This document shows positions 45,507 to 50,044 of a DNA stretch of 64,000 nt, piece after piece (positions within the stretch are counted from its first letter, which is position 1; every line of letters begins with the position of its first letter). The DNA is taken from IMG/VR virus record IMGVR_UViG_3300017739_000002; one strand, 5' to 3'. The position numbers were made by a program, and so were the translations under genes. This DNA comes from an uncultured virus (IMG/VR IMGVR_UViG_3300017739_000002). Its lineage: Duplodnaviria > Heunggongvirae > Uroviricota > Caudoviricetes. The notes under the pieces are model-generated. The model saw nothing but the letters and a program-made list of their open reading frames with translations. It was not told where the DNA came from and searched no databases.

Positions 45507-45726
45507 GACGGAGATTAAACAAATTGTTGAACGTTATGATTTAGAACGTGAGGGCATTGAAGCAAACCTATTAGATTTAGTTTTGTATAGTGGAGGTGCT
45601 ACTACATGGACAGAGCTTATGTGCATGCCAATTTCCTCTGTCAGATTGATGACTGAAAGAATGAATAAAAAGACTGAAGAAGCAAACATGGCACAACAAA
45701 AGGCTAGGGCTTCTCGAGGCCGGTAA
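45487..45726 (+). CDS. Small gp51-like / tail chaperone T-like ORF
   Basis: G..TW.EL..MP...R motif; lies in the -1 frame of gp26; only a TTG start without a spaced SD. Confidence 0.6.
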   Translation: MIATSQPTEIKQIVERYDLEREGIEANLLDLVLYSGGATTWTELMCMPISSVRLMTERMNKKTEEANMAQQKARASRGR

Positions 45727-46156
45727 TTAATTTGTAATATTCTGCAGGCCAGCTATTATAATAATTTGTGCTATGTAAATAATCACGCTTATCTAGAATG
45801 TCTTTTTTCAACTGTATAAAAATACAATTAGTAAAATTCCTAACAAAATGTCCTGACTTATTTGTGCTTGTAAAGAAGAACAGATCGGAAAATTCCTTCT
45901 GCATGTCCTCTGCTAAAGCCTCAAGATCGTAAGACAATTCACCATCACCCATCCAAGCAATACCTATTTCATAACGTTCTCTATCAAACGTTCTAAGCAT
46001 TTCCTTTTGATTTGAACGGGCATCAATGAACTGGATTAGATCCATCATTCTTGCTCTACGTGCAAAGGGACATATAGGGAAACCGTCATCTTTCTTCGCT
46101 TCCACCTCTTTCTCTGTCCAGATCAGAAAGGTGCTTACGAATGTATCGAAGTTCAT
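45704..46156 (-). CDS. DUF1415-like hypothetical protein
   Basis: W....VE...FPICPFA..AR N-terminus and YYNSW C-terminus; late-like GATAAATA at 46277..46270. Confidence 0.55.
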   Translation of the reverse strand: MNFDTFVSTFLIWTEKEVEAKKDDGFPICPFARRARMMDLIQFIDARSNQKEMLRTFDRERYEIGIAWMGDGELSYDLEALAEDMQKEFSDLFFFTSTNKSGHFVRNFTNCIFIQLKKDILDKRDYLHSTNYYNSWPAEYYKLITGLEKP

Positions 46157-46289
46157 AATATTTCTTTCAGTGTTATTAACAGATGTTCTTCAAACATCAC
46201 ATCTTCATATCACTTCGTGATATTCGATGTATATTTCGAATCGGTTAATATATCTATTGTGGTTATAGTTATTTATCGACTAATATTAT

Positions 46290-46623
46290 AACGGCTTTTT
46301 CGCCGAGTGTTTCATTCACACTTAGCCTGATACGGCCAAGTGTGAAAAATGAATACAAGGTTTTTCGCCTCGGAATCACCCACATTATCATAGTAAAACC
46401 TTATTATAGGGAGTCGCGGTTATGCGATACGACTTTACTCACTGCTGAACAACGCAGAAACATCCTTTGCCATGATAACGACTAAGGACTATCCGTGAGT
46501 TCCAATCTGTCAGGAGAGCTCACTCATTGTTTAAATTATGCACGCCAGAATCTGAACACAGGTGTCTGTGAACTCAAAGCGGATCGAGCCATCCCGATCA
46601 AACTGAGCATGTAGGGTTCTGTA
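46290..46623 (-). ncRNA. Putative large structured non-coding RNA of unknown class
   Basis: ORF-free, visibly GC-richer than flanking intergenic DNA, at least 8 stems with G-U pairs on the minus strand, a long-range closing helix and a possible pseudoknot. Confidence 0.6.
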
Positions 46624-47049
46624 TTAGCCGTTAAGTTGTTGTTTGATTATGCCTTTGCCGTGTACTTTTACTTGAATAATGCCATTGTAGTAGTCGTTTG
46701 ATTCTAGTACTTTTCTTGAGAATTGTTCACGTGCCTCTAGGTAACTACATTCTGATTTGGAGTTACAATAATATAATATTTCTCGGGTAAATTTGTCTGT
46801 GCCTAATTGTTCTACGTCTGTGTTTAATTCATCATTTGAGCCATAGTAAGTTTGCCAATCTGATTCTACTTTATATCGTCTTTTGTTTTTTCTGCCTTTG
46901 AGTGGTGGTCTTGATCTGCTAAATCTTGCCAGTTTTTTGCCTATGTATTTTCTATCATTTGTAGTATTGGTTATTAAGTAGACAAAGCCTACACATTCTT
47001 CTGGGAGTTCCAATACTTCTTTGCCATTGTAAAGCCAATTATTCGCCAA
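46624..47049 (-). CDS. Short GIY-YIG endonuclease (Seg-like catalytic domain only)
   Basis: GFVYLITN...KYIGKK, ESDWQTYYGS, FTREIL, LEAREQ, YYN motifs; 141 aa. Confidence 0.85.
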   Translation of the reverse strand: MANNWLYNGKEVLELPEECVGFVYLITNTTNDRKYIGKKLARFSRSRPPLKGRKNKRRYKVESDWQTYYGSNDELNTDVEQLGTDKFTREILYYCNSKSECSYLEAREQFSRKVLESNDYYNGIIQVKVHGKGIIKQQLNG

Positions 47050-47263
47050 AACTTCTTTTTAATTCCTGTATCATATCAATCCCTAACTCCTGTTTAACTT
47101 TCCTACTATCGTAGTCAGGAGTTTTTACAAACAAATCTTCCTCAGGCATGCTGAGTGTGATTGTGCTTGGAGCCATTGATACAGAAGGGATTGTAACTGT
47201 ATCATATGTACCTAATGTAACATCATTTGTATTGATTGAGATGTAATCGTCATCATCATGCAT
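47039..47263 (-). CDS. Small hypothetical protein
   Basis: 74 aa, overlapping both gp46 and the GIY-YIG gene in an operon-like way. Confidence 0.5.
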   Translation of the reverse strand: MHDDDDYISINTNDVTLGTYDTVTIPSVSMAPSTITLSMPEEDLFVKTPDYDSRKVKQELGIDMIQELKRSFGE

Positions 47264-49025
47264 CTACTATCTCTACCTCTGTGTTAAACGTTGTAAAGCC
47301 GTTTTCTTTTGTAACCTGTAGTACACTATTAACACGACCAACAAGTTCATCACGATGAGAGATAAGCAGAATATTTTTATGTCTATCACGTTCCATCTTC
47401 TTCAATACACCTAACGCACTTTCAACGCCAATGGTATCCATACCACTGTCAACTAGTTCGTCAATACATACAAGATTAATAGGATGATTCATACTTTCAA
47501 ATACATCACGGAATGCCCAACTAAGTCCTAATATAAGTCTGTTGCGTTCACCACGTGATAAGTTGTCAAAATCTAAATCCTGTCCTAACTGTACAATACT
47601 AACTGTTAAGTCACTTTGGAACTGCACCTCATGTGGCAGTCCTAGTCTAGTTATATAGTACTCAAGACGTGTGTTTAAAAACTGTAGATTTTGTTCAATA
47701 ATACGTCTACGAATAAAACTGTCTTTGCTGGTTAGTAGTTTTAACAAAAAGTCCTGATGATCTTTCAGTTCTGTTAATCTGTTAGCTTCTGTCCAGTCTA
47801 TGTTTTGTAAGCCAGTTTCTTTTAAACTTTGTATTTGATCCTCATAAGGATCATCTGCATTCTCTTTTTCTTGAATACTGCTTTCTAACGCTCCTAGTTT
47901 TGTTTGATGCTCGTATGCTTCACTTAATGTATCGTAGTGTAGTGTAGGGGCATCGCCCAATTCACCTAGTTCATTTAAGGCGCTCTTATATTCATTTAGC
48001 ATTTCGCTCTCAGAAGCAAGATGCCTTACCGATTCTTCTACTAATTCTGTCTTTTGAGCAATCATTTTCTCATGTTGCTCGTCATGAATCTCTTGTCCAC
48101 ATGCATAACACTTATGATCTAGTGTAGTATCCAAGTCTGCTTGTGCTTTGTCTTTACGTTTTTGTTCACGTTGAATGCTTGTGTCTAGTCTAGCAATTTC
48201 ACTATTAAGTGTTTCAATTTGTGTACGTTTGTTATTAAATTCTTCAAACAATGCATGTGCTTGTATTTCAGCATCAATATCTACTTGTTGTAGTGTAAGT
48301 AAGTCTGTCTGTAAGTCCTTGATATCATTGACTTTTTTATCAGCCCATACTTTTTTACGTCTTTCCATATCTTTAATACTATTTGCAATGCGTTCATTTG
48401 CTTCCTCATTAGCACGGATACGGTGTGTTTCTTCTTGTATTGCGTCTTTTGTGTTACGTACACGCTCTTTAAGTATTTCAGCCTTTTCACTAAGTTGTGT
48501 AATACCCAGTAGTTGCTCAATCATATCCTTCTGATCGTTTGCCCTCATACTTAGGAAAGGTTCTGTGTATGTATTAAGTGCAACAATATGTTTGAACATG
48601 TTGTGCGTCATACCAAGTATATTCTCAATTACTGCTTGGCTTTCTCTACCTTCACCCTGCATTTCATCTGTGTTTGCTTGATCAGTATTATTAACCATGA
48701 ACTTAAACACATTGGGTTTACGTCCACGTTCAATTTTATATGCTATACCATCTTTCTCAAAGTCAACAGTAACCATCATTTGTTTGTTGTTGGTTTTGTT
48801 TACCAAGTTATCTTTACGAATATTATATAGTGCATTGCCATATAACGCATAACTTAATGCGTTAATGATTGTTGTTTTTCCTGTGCCATTACGAGATCCA
48901 TCACCACCCAGATCCATATTATTACCTAACACAAGTGTCAGTCCAGCATGATCAAATGTTACAGCCTGTGTAACATTACCCACACTCATAAAGTTTTTTA
49001 CAGTGATATTTTTTATGTTTAGCAT
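47256..49025 (-). CDS. gp46: Recombination endonuclease ATPase subunit (Rad50/SbcC-like)
   Basis: KNFMSVGN, NGTGKTT Walker A, CYACGQ zinc hook, LSRGE signature, IDELVDSGMD Walker B/D-loop, ISH. Confidence 0.96.
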   Translation of the reverse strand: MLNIKNITVKNFMSVGNVTQAVTFDHAGLTLVLGNNMDLGGDGSRNGTGKTTIINALSYALYGNALYNIRKDNLVNKTNNKQMMVTVDFEKDGIAYKIERGRKPNVFKFMVNNTDQANTDEMQGEGRESQAVIENILGMTHNMFKHIVALNTYTEPFLSMRANDQKDMIEQLLGITQLSEKAEILKERVRNTKDAIQEETHRIRANEEANERIANSIKDMERRKKVWADKKVNDIKDLQTDLLTLQQVDIDAEIQAHALFEEFNNKRTQIETLNSEIARLDTSIQREQKRKDKAQADLDTTLDHKCYACGQEIHDEQHEKMIAQKTELVEESVRHLASESEMLNEYKSALNELGELGDAPTLHYDTLSEAYEHQTKLGALESSIQEKENADDPYEDQIQSLKETGLQNIDWTEANRLTELKDHQDFLLKLLTSKDSFIRRRIIEQNLQFLNTRLEYYITRLGLPHEVQFQSDLTVSIVQLGQDLDFDNLSRGERNRLILGLSWAFRDVFESMNHPINLVCIDELVDSGMDTIGVESALGVLKKMERDRHKNILLISHRDELVGRVNSVLQVTKENGFTTFNTEVEIVDA

Positions 49026-50044
49026 TATAGACTATTATATATTTCTATTAGTTGGGAGTTTTTGATTGTAGGAGAATCAATTGCTTGTAGTTGGTTTAGT
49101 ACAATTTGATCTACGTTTTCAACTTGTATATCATTATTTGTATTCCAATCTGTAGCATGTTCTTCTTTCTTTGCTGGCATGAGTGCAATCTCACGCAAGT
49201 CATACTGTTGTGCAAACGTTTCTTTAATATAGTTTGCTTCTTCATATGTAATACCTACATCAAGTGTTACCCTACAGTGTGTTTTACTTGATAGTATTTT
49301 TTCAGGATTGTCAATAAGTTTACTTAAAGGTATTGTTCTATACTTTGGTGCATCTGGCCATTGTACAAATTCAGGTTGTCCTCCCCATTCTAAAAACATA
49401 AGACCACGTTCATCGTCCCATGCATCTGAGTAATTGTGTGGGAAGGCATTGCCTGTGTAAATGACGTTGCCATCTTGCTGTCGTTTGTGGAAGTGTCCGG
49501 AAAATACAAATTCTGGTTTTCTGAGATCATCAGCTTTTAGCCCATGTCCTAGATCAGGCATTTGTACCATTGCGTTCATATAGAACGAGGGGAGTTCAAA
49601 ATGGCCAAACATGTATCGACATTCCACATGTTTTAATTTTTTCCATTCATCATCAACTAACCACGGCACTATGGCAACGTCGTCTTTGACAAGTATATCA
49701 TCTGTAACAACATGAATATTATCATATTCATCTGCCATTGGAATACTATGGATCTCTCGCTTCTCACGATAATATAAATCGTGATTACCCATAATCATAT
49801 ATACTTCGTCAAAACTTTCACTCAACCGACGTAAGTTACTTACTGTATAGTTGAGTGTAGATACATTGATTGTCGCCCTATGATGATGCCAATCTCCCAT
49901 GAATATACACTTACGTATACCACGTTCATGGGCCTGGTTAATCATCCATATAATAAAATCTTCACAGTCTTTGTTATGAAAGCGACTATTATTCTTCATA
50001 CCAAAGTGAATGTCTGTAAAGACCACTACTTTATCGAATAGCAA
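49025..50044 (-). CDS. gp47: Recombination endonuclease nuclease subunit (Mre11/SbcD-like)
   Basis: DIHFG, GDW, GNHD, GHFE, SGHFH phosphoesterase motifs. Confidence 0.96.
   Translation of the reverse strand: MLFDKVVVFTDIHFGMKNNSRFHNKDCEDFIIWMINQAHERGIRKCIFMGDWHHHRATINVSTLNYTVSNLRRLSESFDEVYMIMGNHDLYYREKREIHSIPMADEYDNIHVVTDDILVKDDVAIVPWLVDDEWKKLKHVECRYMFGHFELPSFYMNAMVQMPDLGHGLKADDLRKPEFVFSGHFHKRQQDGNVIYTGNAFPHNYSDAWDDERGLMFLEWGGQPEFVQWPDAPKYRTIPLSKLIDNPEKILSSKTHCRVTLDVGITYEEANYIKETFAQQYDLREIALMPAKKEEHATDWNTNNDIQVENVDQIVLNQLQAIDSPTIKNSQLIEIYNSL

What the first reader, a model, noticed from the sequence alone, without database searches (positions are those of the whole stretch)
46290..47049. Minimal GIY-YIG nuclease followed immediately by a ~330-nt highly structured non-coding element: candidate nuclease-RNA system
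The largest ORF-free gap in the window starts at the stop of a 141-aa GIY-YIG protein that lacks the C-terminal DNA-binding domains of Seg/I-TevI homing enzymes. Minus-strand stems seen: GATCGGG/CTCGATC (46599..46582) within GCTCA/TGAGT; CACAG/CTGTG (46570..46557); GTGAG/CTCAC (46523..46495); TCCTT-GTCGT/ATGGC-AAGGA (46488..46463); CTGC/GCAG; an AGTAAA/TTTACT junction enclosing GTCG/CGAC and CCT/AGG; and a 13-bp TTCACACTTGGCC/GGCTAAGTGTGAA hairpin (46346..46315) flanked by two GGCGAAAAA-loop hairpins. Long-range pairings: ACCCTACAT (46617..46609) with ATGTGGGT (46385..46378), and CGTTATCATG (46480..46471) with TATGATAATG (46392..46383), a pseudoknot or alternative fold. Mismatches mostly resolve as G-U on this strand, supporting an RNA co-transcribed with the gp55-47-46-GIY-YIG early operon. 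I do not recognise it as tRNA, tmRNA, RNase P or an intron. Inference: an undescribed ncRNA that may scaffold or guide the nuclease (by analogy to HEARO/omegaRNA with HNH/IscB), or a ribozyme or replication-priming RNA.
Basis: partly seen in the sequence, partly recalled or inferred. Interest (0 to 1): 0.85.

Follow-up and report, generated by a model that had tools for sequence, protein, structure and literature searches.

The report
Large structured RNA of jumbo phages
The gap after the small nuclease gene encodes a real, roughly 440-base folded non-coding RNA that is conserved in hundreds of uncultured aquatic giant phages, and part of it was already catalogued in relatives as an RNA motif of unknown function.

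Summary
The 467-nt gap (46157-46623, minus strand) is non-coding, conserved and folds into many helices that covary across relatives, including a pseudoknot.

It is not wholly undescribed. In sister clades the stretch just 5' of the same core is Rfam RF01718, Polynucleobacter-1 RNA, a 2010 candidate RNA of unknown function. The window's own copy does not hit that model.

It is a single-copy gene of uncultured aquatic jumbo phages. It sits after gp47-gp46 and a small nuclease gene.

Linkage to a nuclease gene is very strong: 72 of 73 loci chosen by an RNA motif. But near-identical RNAs follow either a GIY-YIG or an unrelated PDDEXK nuclease. The GIY-YIG gene is inverted in 9 loci, and its homologs occur without the RNA. 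A guide or scaffold role is therefore unlikely.

It is not a 5' leader either, since the next gene is often convergent.

An unexplained 3' module carries two boxes that are identical within a genome and differ between lineages.

Best reading: a trans-acting RNP-type phage RNA. Its biochemical role is unknown.

The parts
46624..47049 (-). 141-aa protein consisting only of a SegE-type GIY-YIG catalytic domain. It occupies the 'nuclease slot' between gp46 and the RNA.
   Evidence: Pfam PF19835 E 2.2e-36 over residues 5-125. PHROG 447 E 5e-41. 331 relatives in IMG/VR. No solved-structure relative at E<=1.
46182..46623 (-). The whole structured non-coding RNA, about 440 nt. The 5' end is not mapped; it abuts the nuclease stop codon. 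The 3' end is taken as the terminal hairpin.
   Evidence: Conserved at 68-78% identity in relatives with no conserved ORF. Covariation. nhmmer finds it in 113 of 200 loci.
46538..46610 (-). 5' domain. Closing helix P1 (ATGC/GCAT) encloses hairpin P2 (46599-46582) and helix P3 (46581-46578 with 46546-46543), which carries the variable hairpin P4 (46570-46557).
   Evidence: P1 inner 3 pairs 90.3% paired with GC/AU/UA exchanges; P2 97.7%; P3 100%; P4 75.5%. Not matched by RF01718.
46377..46529 (-). Conserved core (model R1). It holds P5 with internal loop CUC/A, P6, P7, and a three-way junction P10/P8/P9. The P8 loop is nearly invariant. The P6 loop (46478-46473) pairs with 46390-46385 to form a pseudoknot.
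   Evidence: Model R1 has 157 positions and 36 bp. Full-length matches in 65 of 95 sources and 81 of 100 sources. Over 51 diverse sequences 86.3% of cells pair, against 32-46% slid. The pseudoknot is 82.4% paired with 6 of 6 pairs covarying.
46292..46383 (-). 3' module: two direct-repeat units flanking a near-invariant 13-bp hairpin (46346-46315). Box A GGCGAAAAA is at 46369-46361 and box B GGCGAAAAA at 46304-46296.
   Evidence: Both boxes located (2 matches in the window; 0.26 expected). Within-genome identity and between-lineage divergence of the boxes. Hairpin 96.3% paired.
46230..46291 (-). A+T-rich variable linker. It holds an ATAAATA word (46276-46270) that resembles the T4-type late promoter.
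   Evidence: Alignment A2 columns 440-550. The word is conserved in the window's clade only. The promoter reading rests on recalled knowledge of T4 late promoters and was not tested.
46182..46229 (-). Terminal module. A hairpin with a conserved GA/GAA internal loop (46229-46200) is followed by a closing hairpin (46198-46182).
   Evidence: Outer and inner helices 97.0% and 90.9% paired, with changes on both sides at 10 of 11 pairs. The same module ends the RNA in loci where the next gene is convergent. The last hairpin is misregistered in that alignment (40%).
45704..46156 (-). 150-aa ORF of unknown function downstream of the RNA. It is present only in the window's clade.
   Evidence: No Pfam family. 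15 relatives in IMG/VR. Absent downstream of the RNA in most other clades.
47256..50044 (-). gp46 (SbcC/Rad50-like, 47256-49025) and gp47 (SbcD/Mre11-like, 49025-50044), upstream anchors of the conserved locus.
   Evidence: PHROG 77 E 7e-104 for gp46. Synteny. Best cultured relatives are the jumbo phages PA5oct, Phosso and Atu_ph07 at 44-49% identity.

Best explanation
The gap encodes a single-copy, roughly 440-nt structured non-coding RNA gene of an uncultured marine jumbo myovirus. It is a divergent member of a large modular RNA family.

**Architecture.** The RNA has four parts:
- a 5' domain, which in sister clades is the Rfam motif RF01718 (Polynucleobacter-1 RNA);
- a conserved core with a pseudoknot;
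- a 3' module of two direct-repeat units around a conserved hairpin;
- a terminal hairpin module.

**Shown here.**
- The RNA-level structure and its strand.
- The family relationship.
- The constant position after gp47-gp46 and a small nuclease gene.
- Independence from which nuclease family fills that slot.
- The absence of a co-directional downstream gene in many members.

**Inferred.**
- It is made early, together with the nuclease gene or from its own sigma-70-like promoter where one is visible.
- It works in trans as a folded RNA in a ribonucleoprotein.
- The conserved core is the scaffold.
- The two repeat units, each 'helix strand, GUGAC, short spacer, box', are two binding sites for one partner that co-evolves with the lineage. 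The partner would be a protein, or less likely another nucleic acid.

The nuclease next door is most simply a neighbour. It is either the phage's recombination or resolvase-type nuclease in a conserved gp47-gp46 module, or an exchangeable homing-type cassette beside a conserved gene. It is probably not the RNA's enzymatic partner. The biochemical role of the RNA in infection is not known.

The confidence given covers the whole statement. The 'what it is' part I hold at about 0.9, the trans-acting RNP mechanism at well under 0.5.
For: **Structure.**
- 86.8% of 2613 cells pair, against 35-45% in slid controls. 52 pairs show changes on both sides, against 21-29. 0 of 500 shuffles reach the score. 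This is on a sequence-only alignment of 31 relatives.
- 86.3% pair, against 32-46%, over 51 diverse sequences.
- The pseudoknot covaries at 6 of 6 pairs.
- No conserved ORF.

**Family.**
- RF01718 hits at 63-118 bits lie directly 5' of the R1 core in 5 of 11 sister loci, and in 4 of 20 further loci.
- The R1 core lies 45-65 nt 3' of a Polynucleobacter-1 word, on the same strand, in 52 of 80 loci chosen by that word alone.

**Genome.**
- gp46 is closest to jumbo phages.
- One copy in a 328-kb record with terminal repeats and in a 345-kb record, 100% and 99% complete.

**Independence from the nuclease type.**
- A PDDEXK_15 nuclease (E 1.6e-23) replaces GIY-YIG.
- The RNA stays 93.5% identical over 491 nt and the gp46 side 94.7% over 863 nt.
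- The GIY-YIG gene is inverted in 9 loci.

**Not a leader.**
- A convergent baseplate-hub gene follows the RNA directly in many loci.
- The terminal module is present there too.

**Own promoter in some clades.** TTGACA-17-TATAAT-like sites at 10-12 of 12 matches, at a constant 263-317 nt before the core in 8 of 73 loci. Similar sites were seen by eye in the inverted-nuclease loci.

**Repeat boxes.**
- Mean longest shared word 7.37 nt, against 5.23 +/- 0.16 in permuted pairs (38 sequences).
- 7.32 nt, against 5.37 +/- 0.15, with 53 of 62 loci sharing 7 nt or more.
Against: **Expression.** No direct evidence of a discrete transcript. Four RNA libraries gave only short contigs at depth 2-8 over parts of the RNA and of the nuclease gene. 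These cannot show ends or strand, and could be DNA carry-over.

**Partner.** No partner protein or RNA was identified. No consistent intramolecular complement of the boxes was found in 31 sequences. There is no other copy or complement of the window's box in the 64-kb window.

**Nuclease linkage.** The adjacency is far tighter than for other neighbours. The nuclease is directly upstream in 72 of 73 loci, while the distance from gp46 to the RNA motif varies from about 0.6 to 2.3 kb. Pure neighbourhood does not obviously predict this.

**Promoter.** A sigma-70-like promoter is not general: 9 of 73 upstream regions against 8 of 68 control regions reach 10 of 12 matches.

**Core.** The core is not universal. 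Four loci (L025, L043, L044, L047) have another core with the same 3' module. The scaffold idea is therefore incomplete.
Confidence: 0.55

Rival explanations
1. Nuclease-RNA system. The RNA is the specificity, scaffold or regulatory subunit of the small nuclease encoded just upstream. That nuclease lacks any DNA-binding domain. The twin boxes would act as short guides, or the RNA would control or be processed by the nuclease.
For: - A nuclease gene lies directly upstream of the RNA in 72 of 73 loci chosen by an RNA motif (68 GIY-YIG, 4 PDDEXK). Other genes are inserted between gp46 and the nuclease but rarely between nuclease and RNA.
- Both nucleases are bare catalytic domains of 141 and 172-181 aa.
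- The boxes are the only lineage-variable yet internally matched segments.
- Recalled precedent: the HEARO RNA proved to be the omegaRNA of IscB.
Against: - Two unrelated folds occupy the slot while the RNA stays 93.5% identical.
- The GIY-YIG gene is inverted in 9 loci, and in L012 it is separated from the RNA by four genes.
- GIY-YIG homologs occur with no R1 core nearby in at least 8 loci. The whole Melnitz genome has none.
- The boxes are only 7-10 nt, duplicated and internal.
- No complement of the window's box occurs in the 64-kb window.
Confidence: 0.12
2. Cis-acting mRNA element. The RNA would be a structured 3' end that stabilises, terminates or directs processing of the gp47-gp46-nuclease transcript. 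In the window's clade it could instead be a 5' leader regulating the 150-aa gene. Weinberg et al. 2010 listed RF01718 as probably cis-regulatory.
For: - The RNA starts at the nuclease stop codon in the window and in the RF01718 clade.
- The terminal module ends about 25 nt before the 150-aa start codon in the window.
- The table row for Polynucleobacter-1 in PMC2864571 reads 'cis-reg: y' (passage seen).
Against: - Many members have no co-directional gene after the RNA.
- Downstream genes differ between clades.
- Where the nuclease is inverted the RNA cannot be its 3' UTR, and promoter-like sites precede it.
- About 440 nt with a pseudoknot and near-invariant loops is far more than known stabilisers or terminators need. 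This last point is inference.
Confidence: 0.12
3. DNA-level or replication element. The locus would be an origin or a recombination hot spot. The transcript would serve as a structured primer or R-loop RNA, and the repeats would be protein-binding iterons. Alternatively the conserved RNA gene is the homing target that keeps endonuclease cassettes beside it.
For: - Repeats are identical within a genome and differ between lineages, as iterons do.
- CTAAYAY words lie at 10-11-nt spacing 5' of the RNA in the window's clade.
- An A+T-rich linker is present.
- The locus sits beside recombination genes, and a nuclease ORF is cleanly swapped in one close pair of loci.
- In the cultured relative Phosso, an unannotated 1-kb gap between a resolvase gene and an RNase HI gene lies at the syntenic place.
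Against: - Compensatory changes and fixed G-U pairs on one strand show selection on RNA structure, not on duplex DNA.
- The nuclease is nearly always present and diverges about as much as gp46 (51-69% against 47-75% identity). That fits a vertically inherited gene better than a sporadic homing cassette.
- No origin assay or skew signal was tested.
Confidence: 0.1

Closest known systems
Rfam RF01718, Polynucleobacter-1 RNA (Weinberg et al. 2010, PMC2864571; function unknown)
   Same: In sister clades RF01718 is the 5' domain of the same RNA. It lies directly 5' of the R1 core that the window also has. The locus is the same: nuclease gene, RNA, then baseplate hub. The 3' half of the RF01718 model is a closing helix around two hairpins, like the window's P1/P2/P3-P4 domain.
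   Different: The window's copy does not match the model, even at E<=10. The window lacks the three 5' hairpins of RF01718. The Rfam model is 141 nt and stops where the core begins, so it covers less than a third of the RNA. The published taxa are Burkholderiales and fresh-water or estuary samples. The members found here lie on viral contigs of up to 345 kb.
HEARO / omegaRNA of IscB, and reRNA of TnpB (RNA-guided nucleases)
   Same: A large structured RNA with a pseudoknot lies consistently beside a small nuclease ORF.
   Different: No Rfam match. No terminal guide of 16 nt or more; the variable parts are two identical internal boxes of 7-10 nt. The nuclease family is interchangeable without change in the RNA. 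The properties of omegaRNA and reRNA are recalled, not from a call.
Large 'ornate' bacterial and phage RNAs of unknown function (GOLLD, ROOL, OLE, raiA)
   Same: A long, multi-domain, covarying non-coding RNA carried by phages, with no known function and no obvious cis target.
   Different: No sequence or structure match to those Rfam families. It is shorter than GOLLD or ROOL (sizes recalled). It is not near tRNA genes; none are in the window. Multimer formation was not tested.
Free-standing GIY-YIG homing endonucleases of T4-type phages (SegA-G, e.g. SegE)
   Same: The catalytic domain is of the SegE type. The gene sits between conserved genes, occurs in both orientations, and is exchanged for another nuclease at the same site.
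   Different: It has no DNA-binding domain: 141 aa for a 123-position domain model. It is almost always present rather than sporadic. No homing site was tested.

Membership tests
Rfam RF01718 Polynucleobacter-1 RNA | Match to the Rfam covariance model at or above the gathering score (37 bits) | tested here: not met
   No hit in the window at gathering, nor at E<=10 in 46100-46700. Sister loci score 63-118 bits.
Rfam RF01718 Polynucleobacter-1 RNA | Homology of the RNA as a whole: same core, same 3' module, same locus | tested here: met
   The R1 model, built from the window's clade, finds the core 45-65 nt 3' of the Polynucleobacter-1 word in 52 of 80 loci. The 3' module is shared. The synteny is shared.
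Rfam RF01718 Polynucleobacter-1 RNA | Model architecture: three 5' hairpins, then a closing helix around two hairpins | tested here: inconclusive
   The window has only a closing helix, P1, around P2 and P3/P4. The nuclease stop codon abuts it, leaving no room for the three 5' hairpins.
HEARO/omegaRNA-type guide RNA of a nuclease | A lineage-variable guide segment of about 16 nt or more at one end of a conserved scaffold | tested here: not met
   The variable segments are two identical internal boxes of 7-10 nt. No complement occurs in the 64-kb window.
HEARO/omegaRNA-type guide RNA of a nuclease | One cognate nuclease family that co-varies with the RNA | tested here: not met
   GIY-YIG and PDDEXK_15 alternate upstream of RNAs 86-94% identical. 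GIY-YIG homologs occur without the RNA.
HEARO/omegaRNA-type guide RNA of a nuclease | Physical RNP and RNA-dependent cleavage | not testable with these tools
   Needs pull-down and cleavage assays.
Group I intron carrying a GIY-YIG homing endonuclease | Match to group I intron models and interruption of a host gene | tested here: not met
   No Rfam intron hit. The flanks are separate complete ORFs, and the RNA often ends at a convergent gene.
tmRNA (one- or two-piece), tRNA | tRNA-like domain and tag frame, as detected by ARAGORN or Rfam | tested here: not met
   ARAGORN finds 0 genes in the window. No Rfam tmRNA hit. Two-piece tmRNAs are known in Melnitz-like phages (PMC9004378, passages seen), but at another locus.
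Riboswitch or cis-regulatory 5' leader | Lies upstream of a co-directional regulated gene in most members | tested here: not met
   The next gene is a convergent baseplate-hub gene 560-730 nt after the motif in many loci. The terminal module abuts it.
Free-standing homing endonuclease cassette (for the GIY-YIG gene) | Sporadic presence, DNA-binding domain, cleavage of the empty allele | tested here: inconclusive
   Cassette-like swap and inversion are seen. However, it is present in 68 of 73 loci and has no DNA-binding domain. Cleavage is not testable here.

The most novel reading that the evidence does not exclude
Aquatic jumbo phages would carry an RNA-programmed nuclease module. The roughly 440-nt RNA would be the targeting or regulatory subunit that recruits interchangeable bare catalytic nucleases (GIY-YIG or PDDEXK) encoded next to it. 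The twin lineage-specific boxes beside the conserved hairpin would set specificity. This would be a new kind of RNA-guided or RNA-gated DNA or RNA cleavage, unrelated to Cas9, IscB or TnpB.
Probability: 0.08. Interest if true: 0.92.

Novelty: new variant of a known kind. Interest (0 to 1): 0.62.

Why it matters
**New points about a catalogued motif.** A motif listed in 2010 as a 141-nt candidate RNA of fresh-water bacteria turns out to be the first third of a modular RNA. The window's copy spans about 440 nt.
- The RNA has a pseudoknotted core and an unusual repeat module.
- It is carried as a single-copy gene by uncultured marine and fresh-water jumbo phages.
- It almost always lies beside a small nuclease gene.

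**Why that is worth study.** As recalled from the field, long complex-folded RNAs with no known function are few, and have often proved to be ribozymes or key RNP components.

**What this work provides.**
- Boundaries and a tested secondary structure with a pseudoknot.
- A covariance-model core.
- Hundreds of natural variants.
- A concrete unexplained feature to test: the twin boxes that match within a genome and differ between lineages.
- Tests that bear on the attractive 'guide RNA for a minimal nuclease' idea and make it unlikely.

Tried and rejected
- **Known RNA families.** Rfam over the window gave 0 hits at gathering. At E<=10 there were only four chance matches outside the core. ARAGORN found nothing.
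- **Coding potential.** The longest ORFs in the homologous gap of 11 relatives are 36-80 aa, on different strands and frames. The 40-aa ORF at 46269-46391 is not conserved.
- **Intramolecular partner of the boxes.** No position is consistently complementary in 31 sequences.
- **Bacterial genomes.** R1 found no real match in the 100 of 121 loci searched; there was one 21-nt partial at E 0.079. The Polynucleobacter chromosome that holds the RF01718 seed could not be fetched.
- **Cultured phages.** There was no blastn match of the RNA from three clades among 50,697 records; one search matched only the nuclease gene. R1 found nothing in Melnitz. It gave only E 0.21 at the syntenic place in PA5oct and nothing convincing in Atu_ph07 or Phosso. 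The PA5oct paper's four ncRNAs lie elsewhere (PMC7318152, passages seen).
- **Expression.** Contigs of four RNA libraries cover parts of the RNA at depth 2-8. They show no ends or strand, and DNA carry-over is possible. Uncovered parts carry no meaning.
- **Own promoter.** It is not general: 9 of 73 upstream regions against 8 of 68 controls.
- **Earlier scan notes.** None exist for this place or sequence.
- **Literature.**
  - 'Polynucleobacter-1' occurs in 1 paper of the library. The searches found no description of this RNA.
  - Fremin et al. 2023 (PMC10690425; abstract and section 2.1 read) predicted 8,495 short RNAs of 29-151 nt from IMG/VR. These may include pieces of this one. Their alignment archives could not be searched.
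- **PA5oct and Phosso gaps.** They are syntenic, but homology is not shown.
Full report
**1. What is in the window**

The minus strand reads as follows:
- gp47 (49025-50044)
- gp46 (47256-49025)
- a 74-aa ORF
- a 141-aa protein (46624-47049)
- a 467-nt gap (46157-46623)
- a 150-aa ORF (45704-46156)

A baseplate-hub gene converges from the plus strand.

The 141-aa protein is only a SegE-type GIY-YIG catalytic domain (Pfam PF19835, E 2e-36, residues 5-125 of a 123-position model). It has no relative among solved structures at E<=1.

The gap is the largest ORF-free stretch for ORFs of 80 aa or more. An apparent larger gap near 62.4 kb is an ORF that runs off the window.

gp46 is closest, at 44-49% identity, to the jumbo phages PA5oct, Phosso and Atu_ph07. 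The nearest held record is a 70-kb fragment rated 19% complete. The window therefore comes from an uncultured marine jumbo myovirus, not from a classical T4-like phage.

**2. Is the structure real?**

*One sequence.* The minus strand folds at z -4.73 (0 of 100 shuffles as good). The plus strand gives z -2.93.

*Relatives.* They came from three searches of IMG/VR:
- 331 relatives of the nuclease, of which 80 were kept;
- 15 relatives of the 150-aa ORF;
- 106 stretches carrying the hairpin word.

A profile of the gap found 113 of the 200 loci then held, giving 82 distinct sequences. The gap has no conserved ORF.

*Counts on a MAFFT-only alignment of 31 non-redundant sequences (A2), using 89 pairs I named.*
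- 86.8% of 2613 cells pair, against 35.2-45.3% when 3' partners are slid.
- 52 pairs show changes on both sides, against 21-29 in the slid controls.
- The covariation score is 0.339, against 0.061-0.100.
- 0 of 500 shuffles reach the observed values.

- P2, 97.7%
- P5, 100%
- P6, 94-95%
- P7, 91.9%
- P8, 98.9%
- P9, 92.5%
- P10, 79.4%
- the 13-bp hairpin, 96.3%

The P6 loop pairs with the tail after P10 (46478-46473 with 46390-46385). It is 82.4% paired, with changes on both sides at 6 of 6 pairs.

Two proposals fail:
- the long-range ACCCTACAT/ATGTGGGT (42.1%);
- GCTCA/TGAGT (60.6%, against 67.7% slid by one column).

A covarying ATGC/GCAT helix (P1) closes the 5' domain instead.

*Strand.* Many positions are fixed G-U pairs. 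They would be A-C mismatches on the other strand. The structure is therefore read on the minus strand, the strand of the flanking genes.

**3. Extent and modules**

The RNA is longer than the 330 nt proposed. After an A+T-rich linker comes a hairpin with a conserved GA/GAA internal loop (46229-46200). Its outer and inner helices are 97.0% and 90.9% paired. A closing hairpin follows (46198-46182). It is misregistered in that alignment (40%).

The same terminal module ends the RNA in clades that lack the linker, and in clades where the next gene is convergent. I therefore place the RNA at about 46623-46182.

Its parts are:
- a 5' domain, 46610-46538;
- a core, 46529-46377;
- a 3' module, 46383-46292;
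- a linker;
- a terminal module.

**4. A wider family, and a known name**

A covariance model of the core (R1, 157 positions, 36 pairs) found full-length matches in:
- 65 of 95 sources, including 55 of the 80 loci chosen only by the nuclease;
- 81 of 100 sources.

On 51 diverse matches the modelled pairs hold: 86.3% paired against 31.9-46.1% slid, and covariation score 0.590 against 0.045-0.128. That alignment is fitted to the model, so it leans towards the structure. The pseudoknot was not in the model. It is 63.4% paired there, and by eye it is present in distant members.

Running Rfam on sister loci gave the key result. RF01718, Polynucleobacter-1 RNA, hits at 63-118 bits (gathering score 37). 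The hits lie immediately 5' of the R1 core in 5 of 11 loci and in 4 of 20 more. One of the latter has a PDDEXK gene upstream.

In 52 of the 80 loci fetched with flanks, R1 matches 45-65 nt further 3' on the same strand.

RF01718 was published as a candidate RNA of Burkholderiales and fresh-water or estuary samples. It had 16 representatives and was marked as probably cis-regulatory (Weinberg et al. 2010, PMC2864571; I saw the table row and a passage of the seed alignment). Its 141-nt model stops where the core begins. It is therefore the 5' domain of this much longer RNA.

The window's own 5' domain is not recognised by the model. It lacks the three 5' hairpins.

The family is modular.
- L022 and L079 combine a window-type 5' domain with a 3' module like that of the RF01718 clade.
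- L025, L043, L044 and L047 keep the 3' module but have another core. L025 also keeps the window-type 5' domain.

Complete records of 328 kb (terminal repeats, 100% complete) and 345 kb (99% complete) each hold one copy.

No cultured phage among 50,697 records matches the RNA by blastn.

**5. The nuclease question**

*For a link.* Take the loci chosen by the RNA word alone that have at least 1500 nt of upstream flank. Of these 73 loci:
- 68 have the GIY-YIG gene directly upstream on the same strand;
- 4 have a PDDEXK gene there;
- 1 has neither.

In the same set the distance from gp46 to the RNA motif ranges from about 0.6 to 2.3 kb.

*Against a functional partnership.*
- In 8 of the 82 distinct sequences the slot shows no GIY-YIG match. 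The six examined hold a 172-181-aa ORF instead. The one scanned is a PDDEXK_15 nuclease (PF24608, E 1.6e-23).
- L173 (PDDEXK) and L158 (GIY-YIG) share 93.5% identity over 491 nt of RNA and 94.7% over 863 nt on the gp46 side. The nuclease ORF between them is cleanly replaced.
- In 9 loci the RNA lies on the strand opposite to the GIY-YIG gene, in a divergent arrangement. In L012 four genes lie between them.
- GIY-YIG homologs occur without any R1 core. This holds for at least eight loci of one clade and for the whole Melnitz genome.

An RNA shaped to bind one protein fold would not be expected to stay unchanged when that fold is swapped for an unrelated one.

*Simplest readings of the neighbour.*
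- It may be the phage's recombination or resolvase-type nuclease, held in a gp47-gp46 module. PA5oct and Phosso have resolvase genes near gp46.
- It may be an exchangeable homing-type cassette beside a conserved gene.

I cannot decide between these. The tightness of the adjacency remains only partly explained.

**6. Not a leader**

In many loci a convergent baseplate-hub gene begins 560-730 nt after the motif, right after the terminal module. Downstream co-directional genes differ between clades. The cis-regulatory label of 2010 therefore does not fit the family as a whole.

Some clades show a strong sigma-70-like site at a fixed distance: 8 of 73 loci at 263-317 nt before the core. The inverted-nuclease loci show such sites by eye. 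This is not general (9 of 73 upstream regions against 8 of 68 controls). In the window the RNA is probably co-transcribed with the nuclease gene. That last point is inference.

**7. The unexplained 3' module**

The near-invariant hairpin (46346-46315) is flanked by two direct-repeat units. Each unit is a helix 3' strand, a GUGAC-like word, a short spacer and a 'box'.

In the window both boxes read GGCGAAAAA (46369-46361 and 46304-46296). These are the only two copies on either strand in 64 kb.

The boxes match each other within a genome but differ between lineages.
- Mean longest shared word 7.37 nt, against 5.23 +/- 0.16 for permuted pairs (38 sequences).
- Mean 7.32 nt, against 5.37 +/- 0.15, with 53 of 62 loci sharing 7 nt or more.

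No position within the RNA is consistently complementary to them.

Two identical sites that drift together point to one co-evolving partner. I infer tandem binding sites, but no partner is known.

**8. Expression**

Four RNA libraries hold short contigs at depth 2-8 over 46170-46409, 46466-46644 and 46509-46703, and over the nuclease gene. This is weak. It shows neither strand nor ends, and it does not exclude DNA carry-over.

**9. Verdict**

The RNA is real, complex and nuclease-linked. It belongs to an extended form of a known candidate family, and the guide or scaffold idea is unlikely.
- My best explanation is a trans-acting RNP-type phage RNA. I hold the 'what it is' part at about 0.9 and the mechanism at well under 0.5.

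**Limits**
- No full-length model could be calibrated here.
- The Polynucleobacter seed locus could not be fetched.
- The alignment archives of Fremin et al. 2023 (PMC10690425) could not be searched. Short pieces of this RNA may already be listed there.
- What I say about HEARO/omegaRNA, T4 late promoters, and the sizes of GOLLD and ROOL is recalled, not from a call.

Noticed in passing
L173:1627-2172 (also L160, L095, L125, L117, L155); compare L158: Closely related phages differ by a clean ORF-for-ORF swap of the GIY-YIG gene for a 172-181-aa ORF between gp46 and the RNA. The one scanned, L173, is a PDDEXK_15 nuclease. In the RF01718 clade L341, L345, L376 and L378 also have the PDDEXK form.
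   Followed up: partly
L004-L008, L012, L013, L015, L016: In these loci the GIY-YIG gene is inverted relative to gp46 and the RNA. In L007 and L016 a radical-SAM-like ORF rides with it. In L012 four extra ORFs do.
   Followed up: partly
window 46609-46635 (-); L067:3415-3560: Words of the form CTAAYAY recur at 10-11-nt spacing just 5' of the RNA: 3 copies in the window, up to 5 or 6 in L067-type loci. L067-type loci also have a sigma-70-like site and a short hairpin further upstream. A helical-repeat spacing suggests a DNA-level binding array.
   Followed up: no
L025, L043, L044, L047 (about 330 nt after the GIY-YIG stop): A variant RNA with a different core matches neither R1 nor RF01718. It keeps the same 3' box-hairpin-box module. 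L025 also keeps the window-type 5' domain.
   Followed up: no
L203:7055-8531 (PA5oct, record 75.7-77.2 kb); L205:7410-8425 (Phosso): The cultured jumbo relative PA5oct keeps the synteny (gp55, gp47, gp46, a resolvase gene), followed by a stretch with few or no convincing genes before a 150-aa gene. Phosso has an unannotated 1-kb gap between a resolvase gene and an RNase HI gene. R1 gives only E 0.21 at L203:7688-7845, overlapping an annotated 39-aa ORF.
   Followed up: partly
window 46270-46276 (-): An ATAAATA word, like a T4-type late promoter, is conserved 20-30 nt after box B in the window's clade. If it is used, the terminal module and the 150-aa gene would also be transcribed late on their own.
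   Followed up: no
window 45704-46156 (-): The 150-aa ORF has no Pfam or NCBIfam family. It occurs only in the window's clade. As far as I recall, an N-terminal CPFA word resembles YqcI/YcgG-type proteins; this was not tested.
   Followed up: no
window 46701-46729 (-), inside the GIY-YIG gene: A TGAACA-17-TAGAAT site lies about 80-105 nt before the nuclease stop codon. The same or a near-identical site (mostly AGAACA-17-TAGAAT) recurs at the same place in many relatives. Its conservation may simply reflect the protein sequence.
   Followed up: no
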